NCBI GenBank assembly: GCA_017307785.1
Contig: JAFKGI010000012.1
Location: forward strand, 64,001 to 128,000
Direction: 5' to 3'
DNA: 64,000 nucleotides
DNA from: Vulcanimicrobiota bacterium
GTDB lineage: Bacteria > Vulcanimicrobiota > Xenobia > Xenobiales > JADMJV01
Of this stretch, positions 56,229 through 64,000 are shown piece by piece. The translations under genes were made by a program, and so were the position numbers. Each line of letters opens with the position of its first letter. Position 1 is the first letter of the stretch. Under the pieces are notes generated by a model that was not told the origin of the DNA, ran no database searches, and was given only the letters and a program-made list of their open reading frames with translations.

Positions 56229-56590
56229 CTACTCACCGGCCATCCACCACTCTGCCTTGAGCACCTTCTCGCCCAGGCAGTGGAAGAACAGATAATCGTG
56301 GCGTCCTCGCCAGTAATAAAGCCAGTTTGAGCCCTCCCGCGCATCGGGCTCGCCCATGATCTCCAGCAGGGTCCGGGTGCTCCCCTCCCCCAGCCGCTCC
56401 CCCAACTCGACCATAACTTGATGCTTGCGGCCATCCCAACGGTCCAACGCCGCATTCCAGTCTCCCCCGCTGAAATGCCCCCTCTGCTTGCGGAATTCTT
56501 GATATTCCTGACCCAGGTCATAAAGTGGCGCGGGTTCAGCCCAAATCAGGCCGGTCAAGCACAACCAGAGAAAGAAGCGACGCACAACTT
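56229..56590 (-). CDS. hypothetical secreted protein
   Basis: The C-terminal part of ORF 56229..56693 downstream of the phosphatase gene; hydrophobic signal-like segment FFLWLCLTGLIWA. Start uncertain (possibly GTG). Confidence 0.3.
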
Positions 56591-57099
56591 CAGGTTGGCT
56601 GAAGCCAGTGGCGCACAAACTCAACCTGGGCGTCGGTCTGGGGTGAGCGCGGAAAACGCACGATTTTCTCCATCGTGGTCCAGCGCTGGGCAATGTGGTC
56701 GAGTGCCTGGTCGGCGCTCATCCCCTGTTCGATCAGGTGGCAGGCAACCACCGTGCCGGTGCGGCCGATGCCGCCCCAACAGTGAACGTAAACCTTATGG
56801 CCCTGGTCGAGTCGCAGCTTCAAGTGATCTAAAATCTGGCGCATCGTTTGAAGGCTCGGGACGTCCATGTCACGGATGGTCATACGACGGTGGCCAAAAG
56901 GCTTCGAAGCCTCGATGGTTTCATAAGGGGCCAGGCCGTCTGCCGGGTCGGTCAAGTCGAGGAACTCCGTGATGCCCGCATCGAGAATCCCCTGCAGTTT
57001 CCGCCGGCCCGCCTCGAGTTCGCGCACAATGGGATACTCGCCGGCCATCAATTGGGGCGTGACCCAATAGCAGTTGTGATGAGGACGGCTGGACTCCAT
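56590..57099 (-). CDS. dual-specificity/tyrosine protein phosphatase
   Basis: CX5R P-loop VHCWGGIGRTGTVV with an upstream Asp-containing loop; 169 aa. Confidence 0.8.
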   Translation of the reverse strand: MESSRPHHNCYWVTPQLMAGEYPIVRELEAGRRKLQGILDAGITEFLDLTDPADGLAPYETIEASKPFGHRRMTIRDMDVPSLQTMRQILDHLKLRLDQGHKVYVHCWGGIGRTGTVVACHLIEQGMSADQALDHIAQRWTTMEKIVRFPRSPQTDAQVEFVRHWLQPT

Positions 57100-58001: not shown

Positions 58002-58781
58002 CTATTTCTTGAGCAACTCCAACAGACGCTGCCAGCCGTCTTTGCAGGCCTGGGCATTGGCGTCGGAAGCGTCGGGGGCAGCGCCCGCCCGCATAAATCC
58101 GTGACCCGCACCCAGATGAATTTTGGGCTCGAAGGTCTTTCCAGCGGTCTTCATGGCTTTCTCCGTGGCTTCCAAGGTCTGATTGATGCGAGCGTCGTTC
58201 TCGGCGTAGAAGCCATAGACCGGACAGACGACCTTTTCGGGATTCTCGGGCGGCGAGCCATAGAAGACGAAGGCCCGCTTCAGTCCGGCTTCGGTGGTGG
58301 CGAAGCGAAAGCTCTGGGAACCGCCCCAGCAGAAACCGGCCACCGACAGCTCCGGGGCGGCGGCCGGCAGCGTCTTTGCGTAAGCAGCGGCGGCGTGCAG
58401 GTCCGAAGTGACCTGCTCGGGCTTCAGCGTCCCGACCGCCTTGCGCGCTGCGTCATCGCCTCCGAACTCGGCCGTTCCTCCACCCTTCGGACCCATCTCG
58501 GAAAGCAAGTCGGGGGCGATGACCACATACCCGTGAGCGGCCAGTTCATCAGCCACCATGCGCACCCAATCGGTCAGACCGAAGATCTCGTGGATGAGCA
58601 CGATGCAAGGAGCTTTCCCCTTGACTTCCGGGTAGGCCACGAAACACTCGACCGTGCGGGAGCCGGCCTTGACCTTGACCCACTCCAGATGGCGTGGGGA
58701 CTTCTCCAGTCGAGCCTTAGCCCAATCCTGAGCCAACACGGGGGTACAAAGTAAAACGAGCAACAACAGAATCTTTCGCAT
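58002..58781 (-). CDS. dienelactone hydrolase family protein
   Basis: Signal peptide. DLH pattern (IVLIHEIFGL...HGYVVIAPDL...AGFCWGG nucleophile elbow...GAGHGF). Confidence 0.8.
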   Translation of the reverse strand: MRKILLLLVLLCTPVLAQDWAKARLEKSPRHLEWVKVKAGSRTVECFVAYPEVKGKAPCIVLIHEIFGLTDWVRMVADELAAHGYVVIAPDLLSEMGPKGGGTAEFGGDDAARKAVGTLKPEQVTSDLHAAAAYAKTLPAAAPELSVAGFCWGGSQSFRFATTEAGLKRAFVFYGSPPENPEKVVCPVYGFYAENDARINQTLEATEKAMKTAGKTFEPKIHLGAGHGFMRAGAAPDASDANAQACKDGWQRLLELLKK

Positions 58782-58793
58782 GAAGATTCCTTT

Positions 58794-59804
58794 TTATGGC
58801 AGCGGGAATTTCCCCCCGGGGTCGCCGTTCAGAAACTTTTGGATCCGCTGAGAACCATCGACCACGTTGTGGTGGAAAATGTAGTCCGGAGAGTGATAGT
58901 GGCGAACCACATTGATATTTTTACCTTTGACCATCTGGTAGAGATAGCGCGTAGTATCCACCGCAAAGCCGACAGCCGAGCCGATACTGAGCGGTCCAAG
59001 ATAGTTGCGAAAGACGCTGTAGACCGGATCACTCTTACTGCCGGTATAGTAAATATTCTCGGCCTTGACTCCCGCCTTGGTGAAGTCTTTGAAAGCGGCC
59101 GCCGAGGCCATCGAGAGGATTCGCACGTTGTCAGCCACTTGCTGCTTCATTCCCTGGCGGGACAATAAGGTCAGAGCGGCCGCCGTCTCTGCGCCTCCCC
59201 CACTATGAGTGACCAACTGCACTTTGCGTCCGGCTAGCAACGACTGTTTGACCTCGTCGTGGACCGACTTGATGGCCGGATCGATCTTGAAAAGCTTTTT
59301 ACTGGCCCACTCCAGCGGGACGACGTGGTTCTGGACTAACTTGAGCATAAACAGGGCTTTGCCGATCCGCGCCACGTCGTGAACGCCGGACTTGCCGGCT
59401 CCTTCGTGGATACCAATCACGCTCTGCCCGACATCTGCGCCGGTACTGGCCTGACCGTGAAAAAAGCAACGGATCTGGCGTTCCTGCTCAGGCAACTCCT
59501 GGTGGATTCCGTCCACGTAGATCACGACGCGCCCGTCCGCATTGACGGCTGACTGGGGGATGTCGGCGGGCAATTCCGGCCTGGTCTCACCCGACAGCTT
59601 GAGGACGTTGGTCTCTCCTTTCGGAGTCTGCTCGTAGACAATGCCCTTCAGATGAGGCGGCTCTTGCTGAGTGGTTTCTTGAGCCTGCACATAGTCGACG
59701 CTGATTCCGATGTCTTCCGGAAGATCGGAAGGAGGCGGCGGAGCGGGCTTGAGCAGTGGCTTGGGAGTGAGCGGACGTTGGGGGGCCTGGATTTTCACCC
59801 CCAT
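58794..59804 (-). CDS. alpha/beta-hydrolase-like protein with Pro-rich N-terminus
   Basis: Nucleophile-elbow-like VTHSGGG motif and a conserved His near the C-terminus (VRHYHSPD); no signal peptide. Confidence 0.4.
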   Translation of the reverse strand: MGVKIQAPQRPLTPKPLLKPAPPPPSDLPEDIGISVDYVQAQETTQQEPPHLKGIVYEQTPKGETNVLKLSGETRPELPADIPQSAVNADGRVVIYVDGIHQELPEQERQIRCFFHGQASTGADVGQSVIGIHEGAGKSGVHDVARIGKALFMLKLVQNHVVPLEWASKKLFKIDPAIKSVHDEVKQSLLAGRKVQLVTHSGGGAETAAALTLLSRQGMKQQVADNVRILSMASAAAFKDFTKAGVKAENIYYTGSKSDPVYSVFRNYLGPLSIGSAVGFAVDTTRYLYQMVKGKNINVVRHYHSPDYIFHHNVVDGSQRIQKFLNGDPGGKFPLP

Positions 59805-59890
59805 AGCATGGGGTATCGGAGAGACGGCGTCAGGACATGAATTGTTACAACTTGGGAAGGCGCCCCTAGTTGGCGAAAGAAGTCTCCCCT

Positions 59891-60829
59891 ATGCTCCCGC
59901 TCCTGGAGGCTCTGGAACCCTGCCAGCGGATCCTGATCGCCGGTGCCGGCGGGGGTTTCGACGTGGTGGCCGGCGTCCCGTTATACGAATACTTGAGAGC
60001 GCAAGGCAAGCAAGTCTGGCTGGCCAGCCTTTCCTTCTCCGAGCTGTCCAAGGCCCGAGGGCGCAAACGGGGCACCTACATCCTGGAAGTCGATGCCGAC
60101 TCGGGGGGTGACGAGGACTATTTCCCCGAGCGCTATCTCAGCGAATGGTTCTGGCTAGGCGGGGAGTCGGTCCCGGTTTATTGCTACAAAGCGGCCGGAC
60201 CGATGGTGATGCTGGAAATCTATCAACAGATGGTCCGCGATTTTCAGCTCGACGGCCTGATTTTGGTGGATGGTGGAACCGACATCTTGATGCGCGGGGA
60301 TGAACCGGCTCTGGGGACTCCCCTGGAAGATATGTGCAGCCTGGCTGCCGCCGAGATGCTGGAGGTAGCGCACAAATTTGTTGTCTGCCTGGGATTCGGG
60401 GTGGATGCCTTTCACGAAGTCTGCCATCACTACGTCTTGGAGGCAATTGCGGACTTGAATCGCCACGGCGACTACCTGGGCGCTCTCTCTCTCACGGGCG
60501 ATATGCCCGAGTTCCAGGCCCTGACCGAGGCGGTGGAATACGTCTGCTCGCGCACTCCCGGCAAAGAAAGCATCGTCATGACTTCCGTGGTCGCCGCAGG
60601 TCGCGGGAATTTCGGGAACTTTCACCCGACCGTTCGCACCTCGGAGAGTCAGCTGTTTCTCAATCCGCTGATGTCCATGTATTTCTGCTTTCGACTGGAC
60701 GGTCTGGCTCGGCGATGTCTCTATTTGGACTACCTGAAGGCAAAATACGGACGCTGGGAGGTTCACCGCGGCATCTGCAACTTTCTCAGCACGATTACTC
60801 CACGAGAATGGAAGCGTTTGCCCTTGTAA
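59891..60829 (+). CDS. hypothetical protein with N-terminal glycine-rich G-A-G-G-G-F-D motif (possibly DUF1152-like)
   Basis: ATG at 59891 (a TTG alternative at 59870). ILIAGAGGGFDVVAGVPLY N-terminal motif; the DUF1152 assignment is from memory of that family and uncertain. Confidence 0.4.
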   Translation: MLPLLEALEPCQRILIAGAGGGFDVVAGVPLYEYLRAQGKQVWLASLSFSELSKARGRKRGTYILEVDADSGGDEDYFPERYLSEWFWLGGESVPVYCYKAAGPMVMLEIYQQMVRDFQLDGLILVDGGTDILMRGDEPALGTPLEDMCSLAAAEMLEVAHKFVVCLGFGVDAFHEVCHHYVLEAIADLNRHGDYLGALSLTGDMPEFQALTEAVEYVCSRTPGKESIVMTSVVAAGRGNFGNFHPTVRTSESQLFLNPLMSMYFCFRLDGLARRCLYLDYLKAKYGRWEVHRGICNFLSTITPREWKRLPL

Positions 60830-60845
60830 TGGAGAAGGCGCGCCC

Positions 60846-62213
60846 ATGTCCGCTCCGCAACTCGAATTTTACTCTTCCATCGTCGTCCTCACCGGCTCCG
60901 GTCTCTCGGCTCGGTCGGGCGTCCCCGTGGACCCCGAAATGGGTAGAGATGGCGATTGGACGTCCCTCTATCCCGTCCACATGCTGGCCCTACAGGCCCA
61001 GCCAAACGATTGCCATCTGGCTCTGGCTGAGTGGGAAAAACGCGTGCTGGAGCGCCGTGGCCAGTTCACCCTGCTGACCCACAATACCGACGGACTGCAC
61101 CAACGGGCCGGGAGTCAGAACGTGGTGGAGTTGGCGGGCTCCATGCACAGGCTGCGGTGCGATCAGTGTGACTGGAATGAAGACCGTTTTTGGGAGTTGC
61201 CGCTTCCTGAGTGTCCCAGCTGCGGAGGAGCCACTCGTCCCGACATTCATTGGTTCGGCCAGAGTGCGCCTACCCAGACCGAGTGGTTGGCCCAACGAGC
61301 TCTACGACGCTGCGATCTTTTTCTGGCCCTGGCGGTCACGGAATCGACACCACGGGTGGTGGATTTCGCCAATCTGGCCCGCTTCGCCAAGGCACGCAAT
61401 GTACTGGTCAGTCTGGATCACACTGCCCATCTGGCTGACGAATTCGACCAGGTGCACGACGTCTCGGCGGAAGATTTTATCGAAGAGATTTGGAAAAGCG
61501 CCCAGGCCCTCAAGCAGCCCAACCGCCTGCTGCCGCTGAGTCCGCCGGACAGCCCCAACGCCCCCCACGAGACCGCTGATCTGAAGCCTCTGCAGAAGTC
61601 TTTTACCTCGGGCTATCTGGCCATCTACGACATTGCAGACTTCAAGACCCGAAACCACCTGCTCGGTCACGCCCAGGGCGACCAGGACCTGGAGGAGTTC
61701 AGTCAAGTTGCCCAAGCGGTGGGTGTACAGGCCTGCATGCGCTATTCCCAGGATCAATTTGTGGTCTTGAGCCCCAGGATGGAAACGCTGGAAGCTCTCC
61801 AGGTCACCTACGCCAAAGAGCAAGAAGTACGCTCCGGTTACCGCGCTCTGGCCTGCCGCGAAGGAACTTTACGCAGCAAGGTCGTGACCCACAGCCTGCG
61901 CCTGCGACGCGGCGTCCGAGTCGCCTACGTGATGGTCTTTCGCGGCCAGGCTCTGGATGACGCCGCCAGACAGGTTGCCGAGCGGGTCAAACTGGCCACC
62001 GTCGACCATCTGGTCGCTCTCAACGAAATACAGGACGGCCCCTACCGACCCTGGTCCGCCTTGAGCGGAGAGTTTTCCGTTCTGCAATGCCCTTTCTGCG
62101 AAGGGAGCGAATTCGACTGGAGCTCGGAAGACGTGGCTCACTTCGGGCGCGAGGGCAAATGTCGCCAATGCGGTAGTGAAGTCGAGTTCGAGAACTTTAC
62201 GGAAAGCGAGTGA
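60846..62213 (+). CDS. sirtuin (Sir2)-like domain fused to a GGDEF-like domain and C-terminal zinc ribbon; both signature motifs degenerate
   Basis: The Sir2-like N-terminal half is read by alignment to CobB (GSGLSARSGVP; THNTDGLHQRAGSQNVVELAGSMHRLRC; four-Cys zinc site CDQC...CPSCGG). The C-terminal half is read by alignment to the PleD GGDEF domain (LAIYDIADFKTRNHLLGHAQGDQDLEEF ... CMRYSQDQFVVLSP). A final CPFC...CRQC ribbon follows. The degenerate positions are detailed in the hunt finding. Confidence 0.65.
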   Translation: MSAPQLEFYSSIVVLTGSGLSARSGVPVDPEMGRDGDWTSLYPVHMLALQAQPNDCHLALAEWEKRVLERRGQFTLLTHNTDGLHQRAGSQNVVELAGSMHRLRCDQCDWNEDRFWELPLPECPSCGGATRPDIHWFGQSAPTQTEWLAQRALRRCDLFLALAVTESTPRVVDFANLARFAKARNVLVSLDHTAHLADEFDQVHDVSAEDFIEEIWKSAQALKQPNRLLPLSPPDSPNAPHETADLKPLQKSFTSGYLAIYDIADFKTRNHLLGHAQGDQDLEEFSQVAQAVGVQACMRYSQDQFVVLSPRMETLEALQVTYAKEQEVRSGYRALACREGTLRSKVVTHSLRLRRGVRVAYVMVFRGQALDDAARQVAERVKLATVDHLVALNEIQDGPYRPWSALSGEFSVLQCPFCEGSEFDWSSEDVAHFGREGKCRQCGSEVEFENFTESE

Positions 62214-62653
62214 GGCTGCTCCTTTTCGTCTTCTTCTGCCACGCCTGCGGCCATTTTTCCGCCCGCCTGGCCCTACCCGGTCTGCGCGACTGGTTCTGCC
62301 ATCTCAAAAAGCCCGAATGGCATCCTCCCGCCTGGGTGTTTGCCAAAGTCTGGCTGCTGCTCTATACCCTCATGGGGATCGCGGGTTGGCGGCTCTACCC
62401 TGCTCATTCCTGGTTGCTCTGCCTGTGGCTGGCCCAACTGGGACTCAATCAACTCTGGACCTACCTGTTCTTTGTGCGCAGGTCGCCCGGCCTTGCTCTT
62501 ATCGACAACCTCTGCCTGTGGGCCACCTTGGGCCTATATGTCGTCCTGTGCTGGCCTCACGACCCGTTGGCCGCTGCCCTATTGGTGCCGGAATGGCTCT
62601 GGATCGGCTTCGCCAGTTCCGTCAACTACGCCACTTGGAAGCTCAACCGTTAA
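62210..62653 (+). CDS. tspO: TspO/MBR tryptophan-rich sensory protein
   Basis: GTG start overlapping the upstream TGA. Five-TM Trp-rich pattern (PPAWVFAKVWLLLYTLMGIAGW...LWLAQLGLNQLWTYLFF...PEWLWIGFASSVNYATW). Confidence 0.75.
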   Translation: MRLLLFVFFCHACGHFSARLALPGLRDWFCHLKKPEWHPPAWVFAKVWLLLYTLMGIAGWRLYPAHSWLLCLWLAQLGLNQLWTYLFFVRRSPGLALIDNLCLWATLGLYVVLCWPHDPLAAALLVPEWLWIGFASSVNYATWKLNR

Positions 62654-62690
62654 GAGGTATTTAGGGAGCAGGTCGGAATCTCGGCCATCC

Positions 62691-63617
62691 ATGATTTCAT
62701 CGGCGGACCCGATCGCGGCCTCCTTCGAGTTCGTGCAACTGCGGGAGTGCCCGTTGTGCGGGCATCCGGAGCGTTCACCAGCCTACCAGCGACGCTACCA
62801 GGGAATGGAGATTCGCTGGGAACGTTGTCAGGCTTGCCGTTTCGTTTTCCAGAACCCGAAACTGAGTCGCGAGTCCCTCAACTCCATTTACCGTTCCTCC
62901 ACCTACTGGAACGTGCAGAAAATGGAGACCCAAAGCGGCTTACGCCTGGGATACAGCGACTACGCCAAAGGAGAAGCCTACCGCTTGCGCCAGTCGCAAT
63001 GGAGGCTGAAACAGATTCGACGCTTCGCTCCTGAGGGCGCCCGCTGGTTGGATGTGGCCTGCGCAACCGGATTTTTTGTAAAGACGCTGGTGGACGCGGG
63101 CTTCCAATCCTGGGGAGTCGAGTTGTCCTCCCAAATGGCTCAGTTCGGCAAAGAGCGCTACGGCGTCGATATCGAGGCCTGCGACTTCGATCAGTATGTT
63201 CCACCCGGCGGTCCCGTGCAAGCGCTCTCGATCTGGGGAGCGGACTCCAACTTCTACGACCCGGTCCAAACCTATCAGCACGCCAACCGCATGCTGAGTG
63301 ACGACGGCTGGTTGTTCTTCAACTTCTGGGATTTTGACCATCCGATTCGGCCACTGCTGGGCGAGTTCAAAATCGGACTCAACGGCCTCTACCAACTGAA
63401 CCGCAAAAACATCCATCTGCTGCTGGCCAAGTCCGGATTCCGGGCCGAACTCGTGAAAATGGAGTGGTCCTTTGCTTCTCTGGAAGCCATCCTGTCCCTG
63501 ACCGGCCGCTTCCTACCGCTCCAATGGCTGGGAGGCCTCGGCCTGGCCCGGGCTATTTTTCAAGTGCCCACCTTCAGCGGCTTCCTGGTGGCCGCCCGCA
63601 AAGTCCACTCCGTCTAG
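62691..63617 (+). CDS. class I SAM-dependent methyltransferase with N-terminal zinc ribbon
   Basis: ATG at 62691 inside ORF 62340..63617. CPLCG...CQAC ribbon followed by a SAM motif I (WLDVACATGFFVKTLV) and motif II/III-like blocks. Confidence 0.7.
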   Translation: MISSADPIAASFEFVQLRECPLCGHPERSPAYQRRYQGMEIRWERCQACRFVFQNPKLSRESLNSIYRSSTYWNVQKMETQSGLRLGYSDYAKGEAYRLRQSQWRLKQIRRFAPEGARWLDVACATGFFVKTLVDAGFQSWGVELSSQMAQFGKERYGVDIEACDFDQYVPPGGPVQALSIWGADSNFYDPVQTYQHANRMLSDDGWLFFNFWDFDHPIRPLLGEFKIGLNGLYQLNRKNIHLLLAKSGFRAELVKMEWSFASLEAILSLTGRFLPLQWLGGLGLARAIFQVPTFSGFLVAARKVHSV

Positions 63618-63646
63618 GGGCGGGAGAGACACTCTCCTCAAGCAAG

Positions 63647-63680
63647 AAAAGACCGGCCTGGAGGCCGGTCTTTTCTTTCA
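63647..63680. terminator. bidirectional rho-independent terminator
   Basis: AAAAGACCGGCC-TGGA-GGCCGGTCTTTT: a 10-bp GC stem flanked by A and T tracts, lying between the convergent methyltransferase and S8 peptidase genes. Confidence 0.7.
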
Positions 63681-63693
63681 GTGCAAGGGGGGC

Positions 63694-64000
63694 TTAAGCG
63701 GCGGTTTTGGCTTTTTCCTTGGCGGCAGCGGCTTCGCGACCCATTTGCAGGGCGCGCTTGACGGCGGCGGCAGGGTCGACCAGGCCGGCTCCACCCAGAA
63801 TGCCCGGGGTGTCTTTCATTCCCTCGGCGGTTTCGATCATGACCTGCTTGACCTGAGCCGGGGTCAGATCCGGGTTGGCCTGCATCACCAGAGCAGCGCA
63901 ACCAGCCGTGGTGGGCGTGGCCATGCTGGTGCCGGACAGCAGGCAGTAGTAAGGCGGAAGCTTGGTGACGTCGGCGTCCTGCAACTCGGAGTGGGGAGCC
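63694..64000 (-). CDS. S8 subtilisin-like peptidase, C-terminal fragment (gene runs off the window)
   Basis: Catalytic Ser block GTSMATPTTAGCAALV and the downstream subtilase tail; TAA stop at 63696-63694. Confidence 0.7.
   Translation of the reverse strand, partial: APHSELQDADVTKLPPYYCLLSGTSMATPTTAGCAALVMQANPDLTPAQVKQVMIETAEGMKDTPGILGGAGLVDPAAAVKRALQMGREAAAAKEKAKTAA

What the first reader, a model, noticed from the sequence alone, without database searches (positions are those of the whole stretch)
59891..63617. Operon: DUF1152-like protein, Sir2-like/GGDEF-like fusion with degenerate signature motifs in both domains, TspO, zinc-ribbon SAM methyltransferase
Four same-strand genes with 16-nt, -4-nt and 37-nt junctions are closed by a strong bidirectional terminator. 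In the Sir2-like half of the fusion protein, the dinucleotide motif GSGLS and the four-Cys zinc site are retained. The family catalytic His of the (V/I)ELHG block is Ala (VVELAGS), and the GIPxFR loop is GVPVDP. The C-terminal half aligns well to a GGDEF domain, but GG(D/E)EF is SQDQF and there is no RxxD I-site. A final CPFC...CRQC ribbon follows. This is an atypical, likely non-canonical or regulatory use of two nucleotide-handling folds. It is co-transcribed with a tetrapyrrole-binding TspO, a methyltransferase, and a glycine-motif protein of unknown function. Sir2-like domains are prominent NAD-depleting effectors in antiphage systems, so a role as a sensor/effector module is conceivable, but the architecture does not match any system I can name.
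Basis: partly seen in the sequence, partly recalled or inferred. Interest (0 to 1): 0.7.

Follow-up and report, generated by a model that had tools for sequence, protein, structure and literature searches.

The report
Dead sirtuin fused to GGDEF-like module
A small group of uncultured Eremiobacterota (Xenobia) carries a well-conserved protein that joins a sirtuin domain lacking its catalytic residues to a GGDEF-like/zinc-ribbon module lacking the cyclase motif, so it is most likely a non-catalytic sensor or adaptor and not the "diguanylate cyclase", "deacetylase" or antiphage effector its domains suggest.

Summary
Four same-strand genes (DUF1152, a Sir2/GGDEF-like fusion, TspO, a methyltransferase) have 16, -4 and 37 nt junctions and end at a 14-bp bidirectional hairpin. 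The sirtuin catalytic His is Ala here and A/N/C/Y/K/R in orthologues. The FR loop, the Q of TQN, GTS and the VN Asn are also lost. GG(D/E)EF is SQDQF.

New findings:
- The Sir2 half is CobB-type, not a defence SIR2, and PADLOC finds nothing.
- The C-terminal half belongs to an uncharacterised family of standalone ~220-aa "GGDEF-like + Cys4 ribbon" proteins (consensus xGDxW). They keep the guanine-binding Asn/Asp but not the catalytic Glu.
- A distant collinear homologue (P0208) has an intact sirtuin site, so catalytic loss in Xenobia is secondary.
- Both halves are under strong purifying selection.
- Across 8 lineages, DUF1152 lies directly upstream in 7, TspO follows in 5, and the methyltransferase in 3.
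- DUF1152 is widespread elsewhere without these partners.

Best reading: a conserved pseudoenzyme acting as a ligand-binding regulator coupled to DUF1152. The ligand and output are unknown. I rate it a new variant of known kinds, of moderate interest.

The parts
59891..60829 (+). Gene 1: DUF1152 protein, 312 aa (alternative TTG start at 59870). Invariant motifs GAGGGxD, DGGTDxLxRGDE and GxGxDxxHxVCH. Probable metal- or nucleotide-binding enzyme of unknown function.
60858..61511 (+). Gene 2 (60846-62213), residues 5-222: CobB-type sirtuin domain with a dismantled active site. The Cys4 zinc site is retained. It also lacks about 20 residues of the helical module.
   Evidence: PF02146 1e-24. NCBIfam CobB models all score far below their cut-offs. 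Foldseek to Sir2-Af1/Af2/Sir2Tm gives TM(target) 0.70-0.77. Site table.
61134..61136 (+). Codon 97 (Ala), the position of the sirtuin catalytic His.
   Evidence: Aligned to the catalytic His of the HLHG block of Sir2-Af1. This column reads A5 N2 C2 Y2 K2 R1 in 14 fusion proteins and H in 28 of 29 CobB-like proteins.
61512..61580 (+). Residues 223-245: poorly conserved, low-confidence interdomain linker.
   Evidence: pLDDT <50 for residues 223-240. This is the most variable segment of the alignment and has the highest dN/dS.
61581..62045 (+). Residues 246-400: GGDEF-like domain. SQDQF (61746-61760) replaces GG(D/E)EF.
   Evidence: PF00990 5e-7. Alignment to SadC GGEEF. The equivalents of PleD D327, K332, N335, D344 and R366 are invariant (the mapping to PleD is from my own knowledge). 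The AF2 secondary structure is consistent with an alpha/beta palm-like fold.
62046..62213 (+). Residues 401-455: C-terminal Cys4 zinc ribbon (CPFC...CRQC). It forms part of the same evolutionary module as the GGDEF-like domain.
   Evidence: The four Cys are invariant in the 13 orthologues and in 42 members of the standalone family. Weak Lar/zinc-ribbon Pfam hits.
62210..62653 (+). Gene 3: TspO/MBR tryptophan-rich sensory protein, 147 aa. Its GTG start overlaps the stop codon of gene 2.
   Evidence: PF03073 2e-35 over the full length. Full-length matches to solved TspO structures 8E7X, 4UC1, 4RYI and 2MGY. Identical to MBN9416310.1.
62691..63617 (+). Gene 4: class I SAM-dependent methyltransferase with an N-terminal CxxC...CxxC ribbon, 308 aa. 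It is a recent addition to the cluster.
   Evidence: Methyltransf_23 8e-9. Only generic PDB methyltransferase matches. Present only in the window, L005-L007 and L010.
63642..63682 (.). Bidirectional intrinsic-terminator-like hairpin between the convergent methyltransferase and S8-peptidase genes.
   Evidence: Sequence read. 14-bp stem, -31.2 kcal/mol, z = -5.1.

Best explanation
**What gene 2 is.** It encodes a conserved pseudoenzyme. It descends from a rare fusion of a CobB-type sirtuin with a pre-existing 'GGDEF-like domain + Cys4 zinc ribbon' module. That module otherwise exists as a standalone ~220-aa protein family.

**What happened to the sirtuin half.** In the Xenobia (Eremiobacterota) clade that includes this window, the sirtuin active site was dismantled stepwise.
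- The catalytic His was lost in all members.
- The F-R of the cofactor loop, the Q of TQN, GTS and the Asn of VN were then lost in the derived members.
- The fold, the zinc site and most of the surface stayed under strong purifying selection.

**What the GGDEF-like half keeps.** It never had a cyclase motif: the family consensus is xGDxW, and here it is SQDQF. It does keep the residues that in diguanylate cyclases hold the guanine base, the phosphates and a metal.

**Inferred mechanism.** The protein does not deacylate proteins and does not make c-di-GMP. It acts as a ligand-binding sensor or adaptor. The C-terminal module probably binds a guanine nucleotide. The dead sirtuin domain acts as a docking surface, or as a reader for a protein, acyl-lysine or NAD-related ligand.

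**Inferred partners.**
- It works with the product of the tightly coupled upstream gene, DUF1152, a widespread and highly conserved putative metal-dependent enzyme.
- In most genomes it may also work with the membrane tetrapyrrole-binding protein TspO.
- The methyltransferase is a late, lineage-specific addition.

**Shown versus inferred.** Shown: the architecture, the motif losses, the selection, the distribution and the synteny. Inferred: ligand binding, partnership with DUF1152/TspO, and the regulatory role.
For: **Motif registers.** Confirmed against solved sirtuins and diguanylate cyclases.

**Site table, 14 fusion proteins against 29 CobB-like proteins.**

| Site | Fusion proteins | CobB-like |
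|---|---|---|
| Catalytic His | A/N/C/Y/K/R | H in 28 of 29 |
| Arg of FR | P/A/S/L | R in 27 of 29 |
| Gln of TQN | H in 13 of 14 | Q in 26 of 29 |
| Gly of GTS | A in 11 of 14 | G in 29 of 29 |
| Asn of VN | S in 11 of 14 | N in 25 of 29 |

The residues flanking the lost His (N92, V93, E95, L96, G98, S99, H101-C105) are invariant. The scaffold is therefore constrained but that site is not.

**Selection.** dN is 0.06-0.20 and dS is saturated (>1.4, or not computable). dN/dS is about 0.02-0.16 in both domains for the seven within-clade pairs with a computable dS; the clade-to-P0013 pair (window-L003) has dN 0.32-0.43 and dN/dS about 0.2.

**Secondary loss.** P0208 aligns collinearly over the whole protein (32% identity, E 4e-52) and keeps GAGIS, TQNVDGLH, ELHG and GTSGTVAPA. 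P0013, the most divergent orthologue, still has YR and TQN but lacks the His.

**The standalone module family.**
- About 50 representatives cover profile positions ~20-215.
- Consensus and near-invariant N35, D44, R64, G67, W70 and four Cys.
- 25 of 42 members hit Pfam GGDEF, and none hits PADLOC.

**Coupling to neighbours.**
- DUF1152 lies directly upstream in 7 of 8 distinct lineages, with overlapping or 16-nt junctions.
- TspO overlaps the fusion's stop codon in 5 of 8.

**Precedents from the literature.**
- Degenerate GGDEF domains act as nucleotide receptors or regulators (PMC3974145).
- CobB and c-di-GMP signalling are functionally linked in E. coli (bioRxiv 10.1101/362293).
Against: - No ligand binding, interaction or expression data exist.
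- The GGDEF-like Pfam match covers only half of the profile.
- Pseudoenzyme calls from motifs can fail if catalytic residues have migrated. His101 is invariant and lies 4 residues after the lost His.
- Sirtuin His mutants keep partial first-step chemistry (my own knowledge).
- DUF1152 occurs in hundreds of genomes without this partner. The fusion occurs without DUF1152 in L003 and L090. The partnership is therefore not obligatory.
- Standalone module genes show no shared neighbourhood that could hint at a ligand or output.
Confidence: 0.6

Rival explanations
1. The protein is still an enzyme with non-canonical chemistry. Either the Sir2 half uses other residues (for example the invariant His101) for NAD cleavage or ADP-ribosyl transfer, or the GGDEF-like palm domain with SQDQF makes a nucleotide product other than c-di-GMP.
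For: - Strong purifying selection on both halves.
- GxGxS, N80, D82 and the zinc site are retained, and His101 is invariant.
- The metal-binding Asp, the Lys/Arg and the guanine-binding Asn/Asp of the palm domain are retained.
- First-position variants SGDEF and AGDEF can be active cyclases (PMC3974145).
Against: - Five separate NAD-contacting motifs are altered, and the former catalytic position is hypervariable.
- His101 is also present in P0208 alongside the true catalytic His, so it did not arise as a replacement.
- The second Gly and the fourth-position Glu of GGDEF are both replaced. In the wider module family the fourth position is unconstrained, and the first metal-binding Asp is often Asn.
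- Only first-position GGDEF variants are reported as naturally active, and the paper used an AGDEF-to-AGDAF change to test active-site dependence.
Confidence: 0.2
2. The cluster is an antiphage defence system. A nucleotide-cyclase-like sensor is fused to a Sir2 NAD-depleting effector, with accessory genes.
For: - Sir2 domains and GGDEF/palm-type cyclases are building blocks of known defence systems (my own knowledge, and the mCpol/Panoptes papers listed).
- The methyltransferase has a weak PADLOC mad2 hit (1e-6).
Against: - No PADLOC hit for DUF1152, the fusion or TspO, and none for 42 module-family members.
- The Sir2 half is CobB-type (PF02146) and lacks the catalytic His that NADase activity would need.
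- The gene is inherited in conserved chromosomal synteny across 54-89% identical orthologues, with saturated dS and low dN. It is not patchily distributed in variable islands.
- No phage or plasmid record covers 80% or more of the protein.
- No mobile-element or other defence genes are adjacent.
Confidence: 0.04
3. The fusion is the cytoplasmic signalling partner of TspO. Porphyrin, oxygen or light status sensed by TspO is relayed through the dead-sirtuin/GGDEF-like protein.
For: - The TspO start overlaps the fusion's stop codon in the window, L005-L007 and L004, and is within a few nt in L001 and L009.
- TspO is a bona fide full-length family member.
- TspO is not next to DUF1152 in any of the 79 DUF1152 loci without the fusion, nor in L010, which has the fusion. 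Its presence therefore tracks the fusion.
Against: - TspO is absent next to the fusion in L008, L010, L003 and L090.
- No interaction data exist.
- Standalone module proteins are not linked to TspO.
Confidence: 0.12
4. The gene is a decaying pseudogene or an assembly or annotation artefact.
For: Loss of catalytic motifs in both domains. All data come from metagenome assemblies.
Against: - The ORF is intact in at least 13 clusters of 54-89% identity from independent samples and assemblers.
- dN/dS is about 0.02-0.16 within the clade and about 0.2 for the pair with P0013, with dS saturated.
- About 140 columns are invariant.
- The AF2 model is confident for both domains.
Confidence: 0.02

Closest known systems
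CobB / class III-U sirtuins (PF02146; Sir2-Af1 1ICI/1M2N, Sir2Tm 2H4F, E. coli CobB 1S5P/6RXM, SIRT5)
   Same: - Rossmann plus Cys4 zinc-module fold (TM to target 0.70-0.77).
- 27-39% identity to CobB-like proteins.
- Retained GxGxS, N80, D82, LHQRAGS, RPD and FG(E/Q) blocks.
   Different: - The catalytic His is absent and its position is hypervariable.
- The F-R of the cofactor loop, the Q of TQN, GTS and the Asn of VN are replaced.
- About 20 residues of the helical module are deleted.
- All NCBIfam CobB models score far below their cut-offs (121.6 against 243 for the best).
- It is fused to a C-terminal module.
- The natural A and Y at the His position match the laboratory mutants H116A and H116Y of Sir2Tm (PDB 2H59 and 2H4H, titles).
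Degenerate GGDEF domains used as receptors or regulators (PopA, PelD, CdgA, FimX, CdpA, YybT; reviewed in PMC3974145)
   Same: - GGDEF-fold domain with a non-canonical signature.
- The metal-binding Asp and the guanine-binding Asn/Asp are retained.
- The likely role is non-catalytic.
   Different: - There is no RxxD I-site, so the known c-di-GMP receptor mode of PopA and PelD does not apply.
- It belongs to a separate family defined by xGDxW plus a C-terminal Cys4 ribbon.
- It is fused to a sirtuin rather than to EAL, REC or PAS domains.
Standalone 'GGDEF-like + Cys4 zinc ribbon' proteins (P0172-P0218; uncharacterised, named 'GGDEF domain-containing protein' by JGI)
   Same: The C-terminal 220 residues of the window protein align end to end with them (E 1e-25 to 1e-10). 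This includes the near-invariant N, D, R, GW and RxxRC positions and the four ribbon Cys.
   Different: - The window protein deviates at two near-invariant family positions: G67 to Q and W70 to F, giving SQDQF rather than xGDxW.
- It carries the sirtuin domain at its N-terminus.
P0208 (700 aa, metagenomic contig L090): Sir2 + GGDEF-like/ribbon fusion with an intact sirtuin site
   Same: Collinear over all 455 residues (32% identity, E 4e-52). It has the same shortened helical module and the same His at +4. Its Pfam SIR2 match also starts at profile position 56.
   Different: - It keeps GAGIS, YR, TQN, ELHG and GTS.
- It has an extra ~260-aa N-terminal region.
- Its GGDEF-like signature is even more degenerate.
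- DUF1152 and TspO are not adjacent.
Defence-type SIR2 effectors (Thoeris ThsA, DSR1/2, SIR2-HerA, SPARSA) and the mCpol/Panoptes palm-domain cyclase
   Same: They use the same two broad folds: a Sir2 Rossmann fold and a GGDEF/Cas10-type palm.
   Different: - No PADLOC match.
- The Sir2 half is CobB-type rather than SIR2_2-type.
- The catalytic His is missing.
- The locus is stably inherited in the chromosome, and no partner genes of those systems are present.
- mCpol was not tested directly.

Membership tests
Sirtuin / NAD-dependent protein deacylase (CobB) | Sir2 fold: Rossmann domain plus zinc-binding module with four Cys | tested here: met
   PF02146 1e-24. Foldseek TM(target) 0.70-0.77 to Sir2-Af1/Af2/Sir2Tm. 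C105/C108/C123/C126 invariant.
Sirtuin / NAD-dependent protein deacylase (CobB) | Catalytic His of the (V/I)ELHG block | tested here: not met
   Ala97 aligns to the catalytic His of Sir2-Af1. This column reads A5 N2 C2 Y2 K2 R1 in the fusion clade and H in 28 of 29 CobB-like proteins.
Sirtuin / NAD-dependent protein deacylase (CobB) | NAD-contacting motifs: GIPxFR loop, TQN, GTS and VN | tested here: not met
   FR becomes DP (variable). Q79 becomes H (13 of 14). G163/T164 become A/V. N189 becomes S (11 of 14). N80, D82 and GxGxS are retained.
Sirtuin / NAD-dependent protein deacylase (CobB) | Score above the NCBIfam equivalog/subfamily cut-off | tested here: not met
   The best model, NF001753, scores 121.6 bits against a cut-off of 243. 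NF040867 scores 104.6 against 320.
Diguanylate cyclase (GGDEF domain) | GGDEF domain above the Pfam gathering score | tested here: met
   PF00990 30.0 bits against 23.8, but only profile positions 31-106 of 161 match. TIGR00254 scores 25.9 against 37.4, below its cut-off.
Diguanylate cyclase (GGDEF domain) | GG(D/E)EF active-site hairpin | tested here: not met
   SQDQF aligns to the GGEEF of SadC and is nearly invariant in the clade. Only first-position variants are known to be active.
Diguanylate cyclase (GGDEF domain) | Substrate and metal residues (PleD D327, K332, N335, D344, R366) | tested here: met
   D262, K267, N270, D279 and R299 are invariant in 13 orthologues. Register; the mapping to PleD numbering is from my own knowledge.
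Diguanylate cyclase (GGDEF domain) | RxxD inhibitory site (common but not defining) | tested here: not met
   The sequence upstream of the signature is AVGVQACMRY, with no RxxD.
Antiphage SIR2 systems (Thoeris, DSR, SIR2-HerA, SPARSA) | Match to defence-system protein models, with partner genes present | tested here: not met
   PADLOC gives no hit at E <= 1 apart from noise for genes 1-3. The neighbours are DLH, an unknown protein, an S8 peptidase and a PTP.
mCpol / Cas10-type palm cyclases (Panoptes) | Profile or structural match to mCpol and an adjacent 2TM effector | not tested
   No mCpol profile is available in the libraries used. All sequence matches are to GGDEF diguanylate cyclases. 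TspO (5 TM) is not the Panoptes effector.
TspO/MBR | Full-length match to PF03073 and to solved TspO structures | tested here: met
   2e-35 over positions 1-144 of 145. 8E7X, 4UC1, 4RYI and 2MGY match at 1e-10 to 1e-16 over the full length.
DUF1152 (PF06626) | Pfam match above the gathering score | tested here: met
   79.1 bits against 27. 3307 homologues.
LmbE / PIG-L deacetylases (considered for DUF1152) | Fold similarity | tested here: inconclusive
LmbE / PIG-L deacetylases (considered for DUF1152) | Zinc motifs (A/P)HPDD and HxxH | tested here: not met
   The invariant DUF1152 motifs are GAGGGxD, DGGTDxLxRGDE and GxGxDxxHxVCH. There is no HPDD. This comes from reading the sequence, not from a structural superposition.

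The most novel reading that the evidence does not exclude
The 'GGDEF-like + zinc ribbon' module is a previously unrecognised nucleotide-sensing domain family that recruits or regulates a sirtuin, which is still active in P0208. In Xenobia the sirtuin became a non-catalytic acyl-lysine or NAD-metabolite reader. It now hands its target to DUF1152, which would be a new, NAD-independent, metal-dependent deacylase or hydrolase. TspO would tie the pathway to tetrapyrrole or redox status. This would assign a first function to the widespread DUF1152 family.
Probability: 0.08. Interest if true: 0.75.

Novelty: new variant of a known kind. Interest (0 to 1): 0.4.

Why it matters
**Annotation.** Public databases name this protein 'diguanylate cyclase' (NCBI) or 'NAD-dependent deacetylase' (JGI). 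Both names rest on domains whose catalytic motifs are missing, so metabolic and signalling inferences for Eremiobacterota genomes that use these names are wrong.

**Biology.**
- It is a clean natural example of stepwise conversion of a bacterial sirtuin into a pseudoenzyme, with an active relative (P0208) available for comparison.
- It exposes an uncharacterised family of small GGDEF-derived proteins with a zinc ribbon.
- It gives one of the few genomic handles on DUF1152. That family has thousands of members, is highly conserved across many phyla, and has no literature or solved structure.

None of this yet answers a long-standing question.

Tried and rejected
- **Antiphage reading.** Rejected after PADLOC gave nothing, the Sir2 half proved to be CobB-type, and tblastn found no phage or plasmid record with the architecture.
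- **Conserved DUF1152 partners.** 80 loci from many phyla were clustered by neighbour ORFs. No conserved neighbour was found, and the fusion appears only in Xenobia.
- **Contexts of standalone module genes** (P0212, P0175, P0323, P0173). No shared neighbours.
- **Third protein search with A5.** It returned only 5 proteins.
- **afdb50 fold library.** Unavailable.
- **Riboswitch or leader RNA.** Rfam found nothing credible in 58700-64000.
- **Sigma-70 promoter scan.** No sites. The same scan missed the terminator because its A- and U-tracts pair with each other.
- **Literature.** No paper mentions DUF1152. No paper describing a Sir2-GGDEF fusion was found.
- **His101 as a migrated catalytic residue.** Made unlikely by its presence in P0208. 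Its geometry could not be inspected because model coordinates are not exposed.
- **Pseudogene or artefact.** Rejected by the conservation and dN/dS results.

Full report
**1. The observation**

The region holds four + strand ORFs:
- 59891-60829, with an alternative TTG start at 59870;
- 60846-62213;
- 62210-62653, with a GTG start overlapping the preceding TGA;
- 62691-63617, inside a longer mechanical ORF.

Pfam calls DUF1152 (4e-22), SIR2 plus GGDEF (1e-24 and 5e-7), TspO (2e-35, full length) and Methyltransf_23 (8e-9).

Downstream, between the methyltransferase stop (63615-63617) and the stop of a convergent S8-peptidase gene (63694-63696), lies a perfect 14-bp hairpin at 63645-63676. Its flanking A- and T-tracts pair with each other. 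It folds at -31.2 kcal/mol with z = -5.1. The simple terminator scan missed it because of that pairing.

The four proteins are identical to MBN9416308.1 to MBN9416311.1 from a 'Candidatus Eremiobacteraeota' MAG contig of 184 kb. NCBI names the fusion 'diguanylate cyclase'.

**2. The motif claims**

*Sirtuin half.* A profile of the 13 full-length orthologues was aligned to solved sirtuins. It places the family's variable residue 97 (Ala here) opposite the catalytic His of Sir2-Af1 (HLHGS). It places GVPVxx opposite GIPTFR, and THNTD opposite TQNVD.

I tabulated each functional column in 14 fusion proteins and 29 CobB-like homologues:

| Site | Fusion proteins | CobB-like |
|---|---|---|
| Catalytic His | A5 N2 C2 Y2 K2 R1 | H in 28 of 29 |
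| Phe of FR | seven different residues or a gap | F/Y in 29 of 29 |
| Arg of FR | mostly Pro | R in 27 of 29 |
| Gln of TQN | H in 13 of 14 | Q in 26 of 29 |
| Gly of GTS | A in 11 of 14 | G in 29 of 29 |
| Thr/Ser of GTS | V in 13 of 14 | T or S in 26 of 29 |
| Asn of VN | S in 11 of 14 | N in 25 of 29 |

Retained features are GxGxS, N80, D82, the LHQRAGS block and all four zinc Cys. The residues on either side of position 97 are invariant. The scaffold is therefore constrained while the former catalytic position drifts freely.

About 20 residues of the helical module are missing. The Pfam match starts at profile position 50. All NCBIfam CobB models score far below their cut-offs.

The AF2 model (mean pLDDT 82, with the linker at residues 223-240 disordered) superposes on Sir2-Af1, Af2 and Sir2Tm with TM(target) 0.70-0.77.

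*GGDEF half.* A profile alignment to the SadC GGDEF domain (4WXO) puts SQDQF opposite GGEEF. By my own mapping to PleD numbering, the invariant D262, K267, N270, D279 and R299 correspond to D327, K332, N335, D344 and R366. These are the metal, phosphate and guanine contacts. There is no RxxD.

Only first-position variants of the signature (SGDEF, AGDEF) are documented as naturally active. The same paper probed active-site dependence with a fourth-position change, AGDEF to AGDAF (PMC3974145). Here the second Gly and the fourth-position Glu are both replaced.

**3. What the protein is**

Among 5.8 billion protein clusters, only 13 are full-length homologues (54-89% identity). Everything else is a plain ~250-aa CobB-like protein at 39% identity or less. 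Contig names and record titles place the homologues in Xenobia/Vulcanimicrobiota, that is Eremiobacterota.

I searched 1.84 billion representatives with a profile of the C-terminal 220 residues. This showed that 'GGDEF-like domain + Cys4 ribbon' is a module in its own right.
- About 50 representatives are standalone proteins of 203-249 aa, most of them 214-233 aa, that cover the whole profile.
- A few are fused to other, unannotated regions.
- The consensus is LPGxLAxFNxADxKRRNxHLGHxxxDxDI ... RVxGDxW ... GW ... RxxRCxY ... WxC ... CPFC ... CxxCGAxVxF.
- The signature is xGDxW, the fourth position is unconstrained, and the first metal-binding Asp is often Asn.
- The Asn and Asp that read the guanine base in cyclases are nearly invariant.
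- 25 of 42 members hit Pfam GGDEF, and none hits PADLOC.
- The window protein deviates even from this family at two near-invariant positions (G to Q, and W to F).

One representative, P0208 (700 aa), is collinear with the window protein over all 455 residues (32% identity, E 4e-52). It shares the shortened helical module but keeps GAGIS, YR, TQNVDGLH, ELHG and GTSGTVAPA. The Sir2-module fusion is therefore older than the Xenobia clade, and the catalytic loss there is secondary.

The most divergent Xenobia orthologue, P0013, still has YR and TQN but already lacks the His. This suggests the His was lost first and the NAD-contact motifs eroded afterwards.

It is therefore not a replacement that arose after the loss.

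Nei-Gojobori estimates give dN of 0.06-0.20, with dS saturated (above 1.4, or not computable), in both domains for within-clade pairs. The ratio is about 0.02-0.16 where dS could be computed. The pair with the divergent P0013 lineage (window-L003) has dN 0.32-0.43 and a ratio of about 0.2. The gene is clearly maintained by selection.

**4. The gene cluster**

The table covers eight distinct lineages.

| Lineage | DUF1152 directly upstream | TspO | Methyltransferase |
|---|---|---|---|
| Window | yes | yes | yes |
| L005-L007 | yes | yes | yes |
| L010 | yes | no | yes |
| L001/L002 | yes | yes | no |
| L004 | yes | yes | no |
| L009 | yes | yes | no |
| L008 | yes | no (unknown 512-aa gene instead) | no |
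| L003 | no (DUF1206 upstream) | no (unknown 135-aa gene) | no |

- DUF1152 lies directly upstream in 7 of 8 lineages, often with a 4-nt overlap.
- TspO follows in 5 of 8.
- The methyltransferase follows in 3 of 8, and only in the closest relatives.
- P0208 has none of these neighbours.

DUF1152 is widespread and highly conserved.
- It has 3307 homologues.
- A scan of one genome per species gave 559 confirmed hits. They span Myxococcota, actinomycetes, cyanobacteria, Planctomycetota, Acidobacteriota, Abditibacteriota and others, at 42-62% identity apart from one close Xenobia relative at 86%.
- In those 80 loci no neighbour family is conserved. The only one carrying the fusion is L010, the close Xenobia relative, and none carries TspO next to DUF1152.

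The cluster is therefore a recent, lineage-specific assembly built on an old housekeeping-like gene. The whole block, including the divergent DLH and 336-aa genes, is inverted relative to its flanks between the window and L005.

**5. DUF1152**

No paper mentions it, and no solved structure matches by sequence. The AF2 model is confident (pLDDT 94). Its best structural matches are LmbE/PIG-L-type deacetylases, but only weakly:
- Foldseek E ~4e-3, TM 0.37-0.46.

The LmbE zinc motifs are absent. The invariant motifs are GAGGGxD, DGGTDxLxRGDE and GxGxDxxHxVCH. They suggest a phosphate- or metal-binding active site in a Rossmann-like fold. I treat 'metal-dependent hydrolase' as a lead, not a finding.

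**6. Mechanism**

*Shown.*
- A CobB-derived domain lacks its catalytic His and most NAD-pocket motifs.
- A GGDEF-derived module lacks the cyclase signature but keeps base, phosphate and metal contacts.
- Both halves are under strong purifying selection.
- The gene is tightly coupled to DUF1152.

*Inferred.* The protein is a pseudoenzyme that senses a ligand and docks onto a partner or substrate.
- The palm-like module most plausibly binds a guanine nucleotide.
- The dead sirtuin domain provides the docking surface.
- It thereby regulates or assists DUF1152 and, where present, TspO.

*Precedents.*
- Degenerate GGDEF domains act as receptors and regulators.
- In E. coli, c-di-GMP binds CobB and CobB deacetylates the cyclase DgcZ/YdeH.

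*Rivals.*
- Residual or novel catalysis (0.2).
- A TspO-centred relay (0.12, not exclusive of the main model).
- Antiphage defence (0.04).
- Pseudogene or artefact (0.02).

**7. Comparison and novelty**

The protein works like known degenerate-GGDEF regulators and like pseudoenzymes in general. It fails the defining catalytic features of both sirtuin deacylases and diguanylate cyclases, so it should not be filed as a member of either enzyme class. It shows no defence signature.

I did not find any of the following described in the literature:
- the sirtuin/GGDEF-like fusion;
- the standalone xGDxW-ribbon family;
- the DUF1152 link.

I rate it a new variant of known kinds with moderate interest (0.4). 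It is a clear correction of public annotation and a tidy natural pseudo-sirtuin with an active comparator, but the function is not yet resolved.

Noticed in passing
window 58002-63617 compared with L005 5156-10793: The block DLH / 336-aa unknown / DUF1152 / fusion / TspO / methyltransferase is inverted relative to its flanks between the window and the 88%-identical relatives L005-L007. The flanks are the S8 peptidase on one side and the 288-aa unknown, PTP phosphatase and Kup transporter on the other.
   Followed up: partly
window 58794-59804 (- strand): A divergently transcribed 336-aa protein has no Pfam hit, a proline-rich N-terminus and a THSGGG (GxSxG-like) motif. A counterpart of 269-367 aa sits in the same position upstream of DUF1152 in L001, L002, L004, L005 and L008. 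It may be a lipase/esterase-like protein, and it lies next to a dienelactone hydrolase (58002-58781).
   Followed up: partly
P0172-P0218 (standalone); loci L091 7001-7720, L092 7001-7657, L093 1331-2023: An uncharacterised family of ~220-aa 'GGDEF-like + Cys4 zinc ribbon' proteins has the signature xGDxW. About 50 representatives at 50% identity were found, with no conserved gene neighbourhood. JGI labels some of them 'GGDEF domain-containing protein'.
   Followed up: partly
P0185, P0192, P0314, P0177 (metagenomic proteins): The same GGDEF-like/ribbon module is fused at its C-terminus to shared regions of 250-500 residues with no Pfam match. One of these regions resembles a degenerate protein-kinase-like segment by eye (HPxLVFVD...).
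   Followed up: no
L090 8001-10103 (P0208): A 700-aa protein from an unidentified organism has an N-terminal ~260-aa Cys-rich region, an apparently intact sirtuin domain and the GGDEF-like/ribbon module. It is the only found relative of the fusion with a complete sirtuin active site.
   Followed up: partly
window 59891-60829 and loci L010-L089: DUF1152 has thousands of homologues and is unusually conserved, at 42-62% identity across phyla (one close Xenobia relative is at 86%). It has three invariant Gly/Asp/His/Cys motifs. It has no literature, no solved structure and no conserved neighbours.
   Followed up: partly
window 60846-62213: Public annotation names this protein 'diguanylate cyclase' (NCBI MBN9416309.1). 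JGI names its homologues 'NAD-dependent deacetylase'. Both names are probably wrong because the catalytic motifs are absent.
   Followed up: yes
window 63645-63676: The consensus terminator scan did not report the strongest hairpin in the region. Its A- and T-tracts extend the stem, leaving too few unpaired T residues for the scan's rule.
   Followed up: yes
window 56590-57099 (- strand); L004 3356-3853; L005 11695-12201; L008 234-1382: A DSP/PTP-type phosphatase (Pfam Tc-R-P / PTP-SAK) recurs within a few kb of the cluster in several Xenobia loci. In L008 it is fused to an Exo_endo_phos domain.
   Followed up: no
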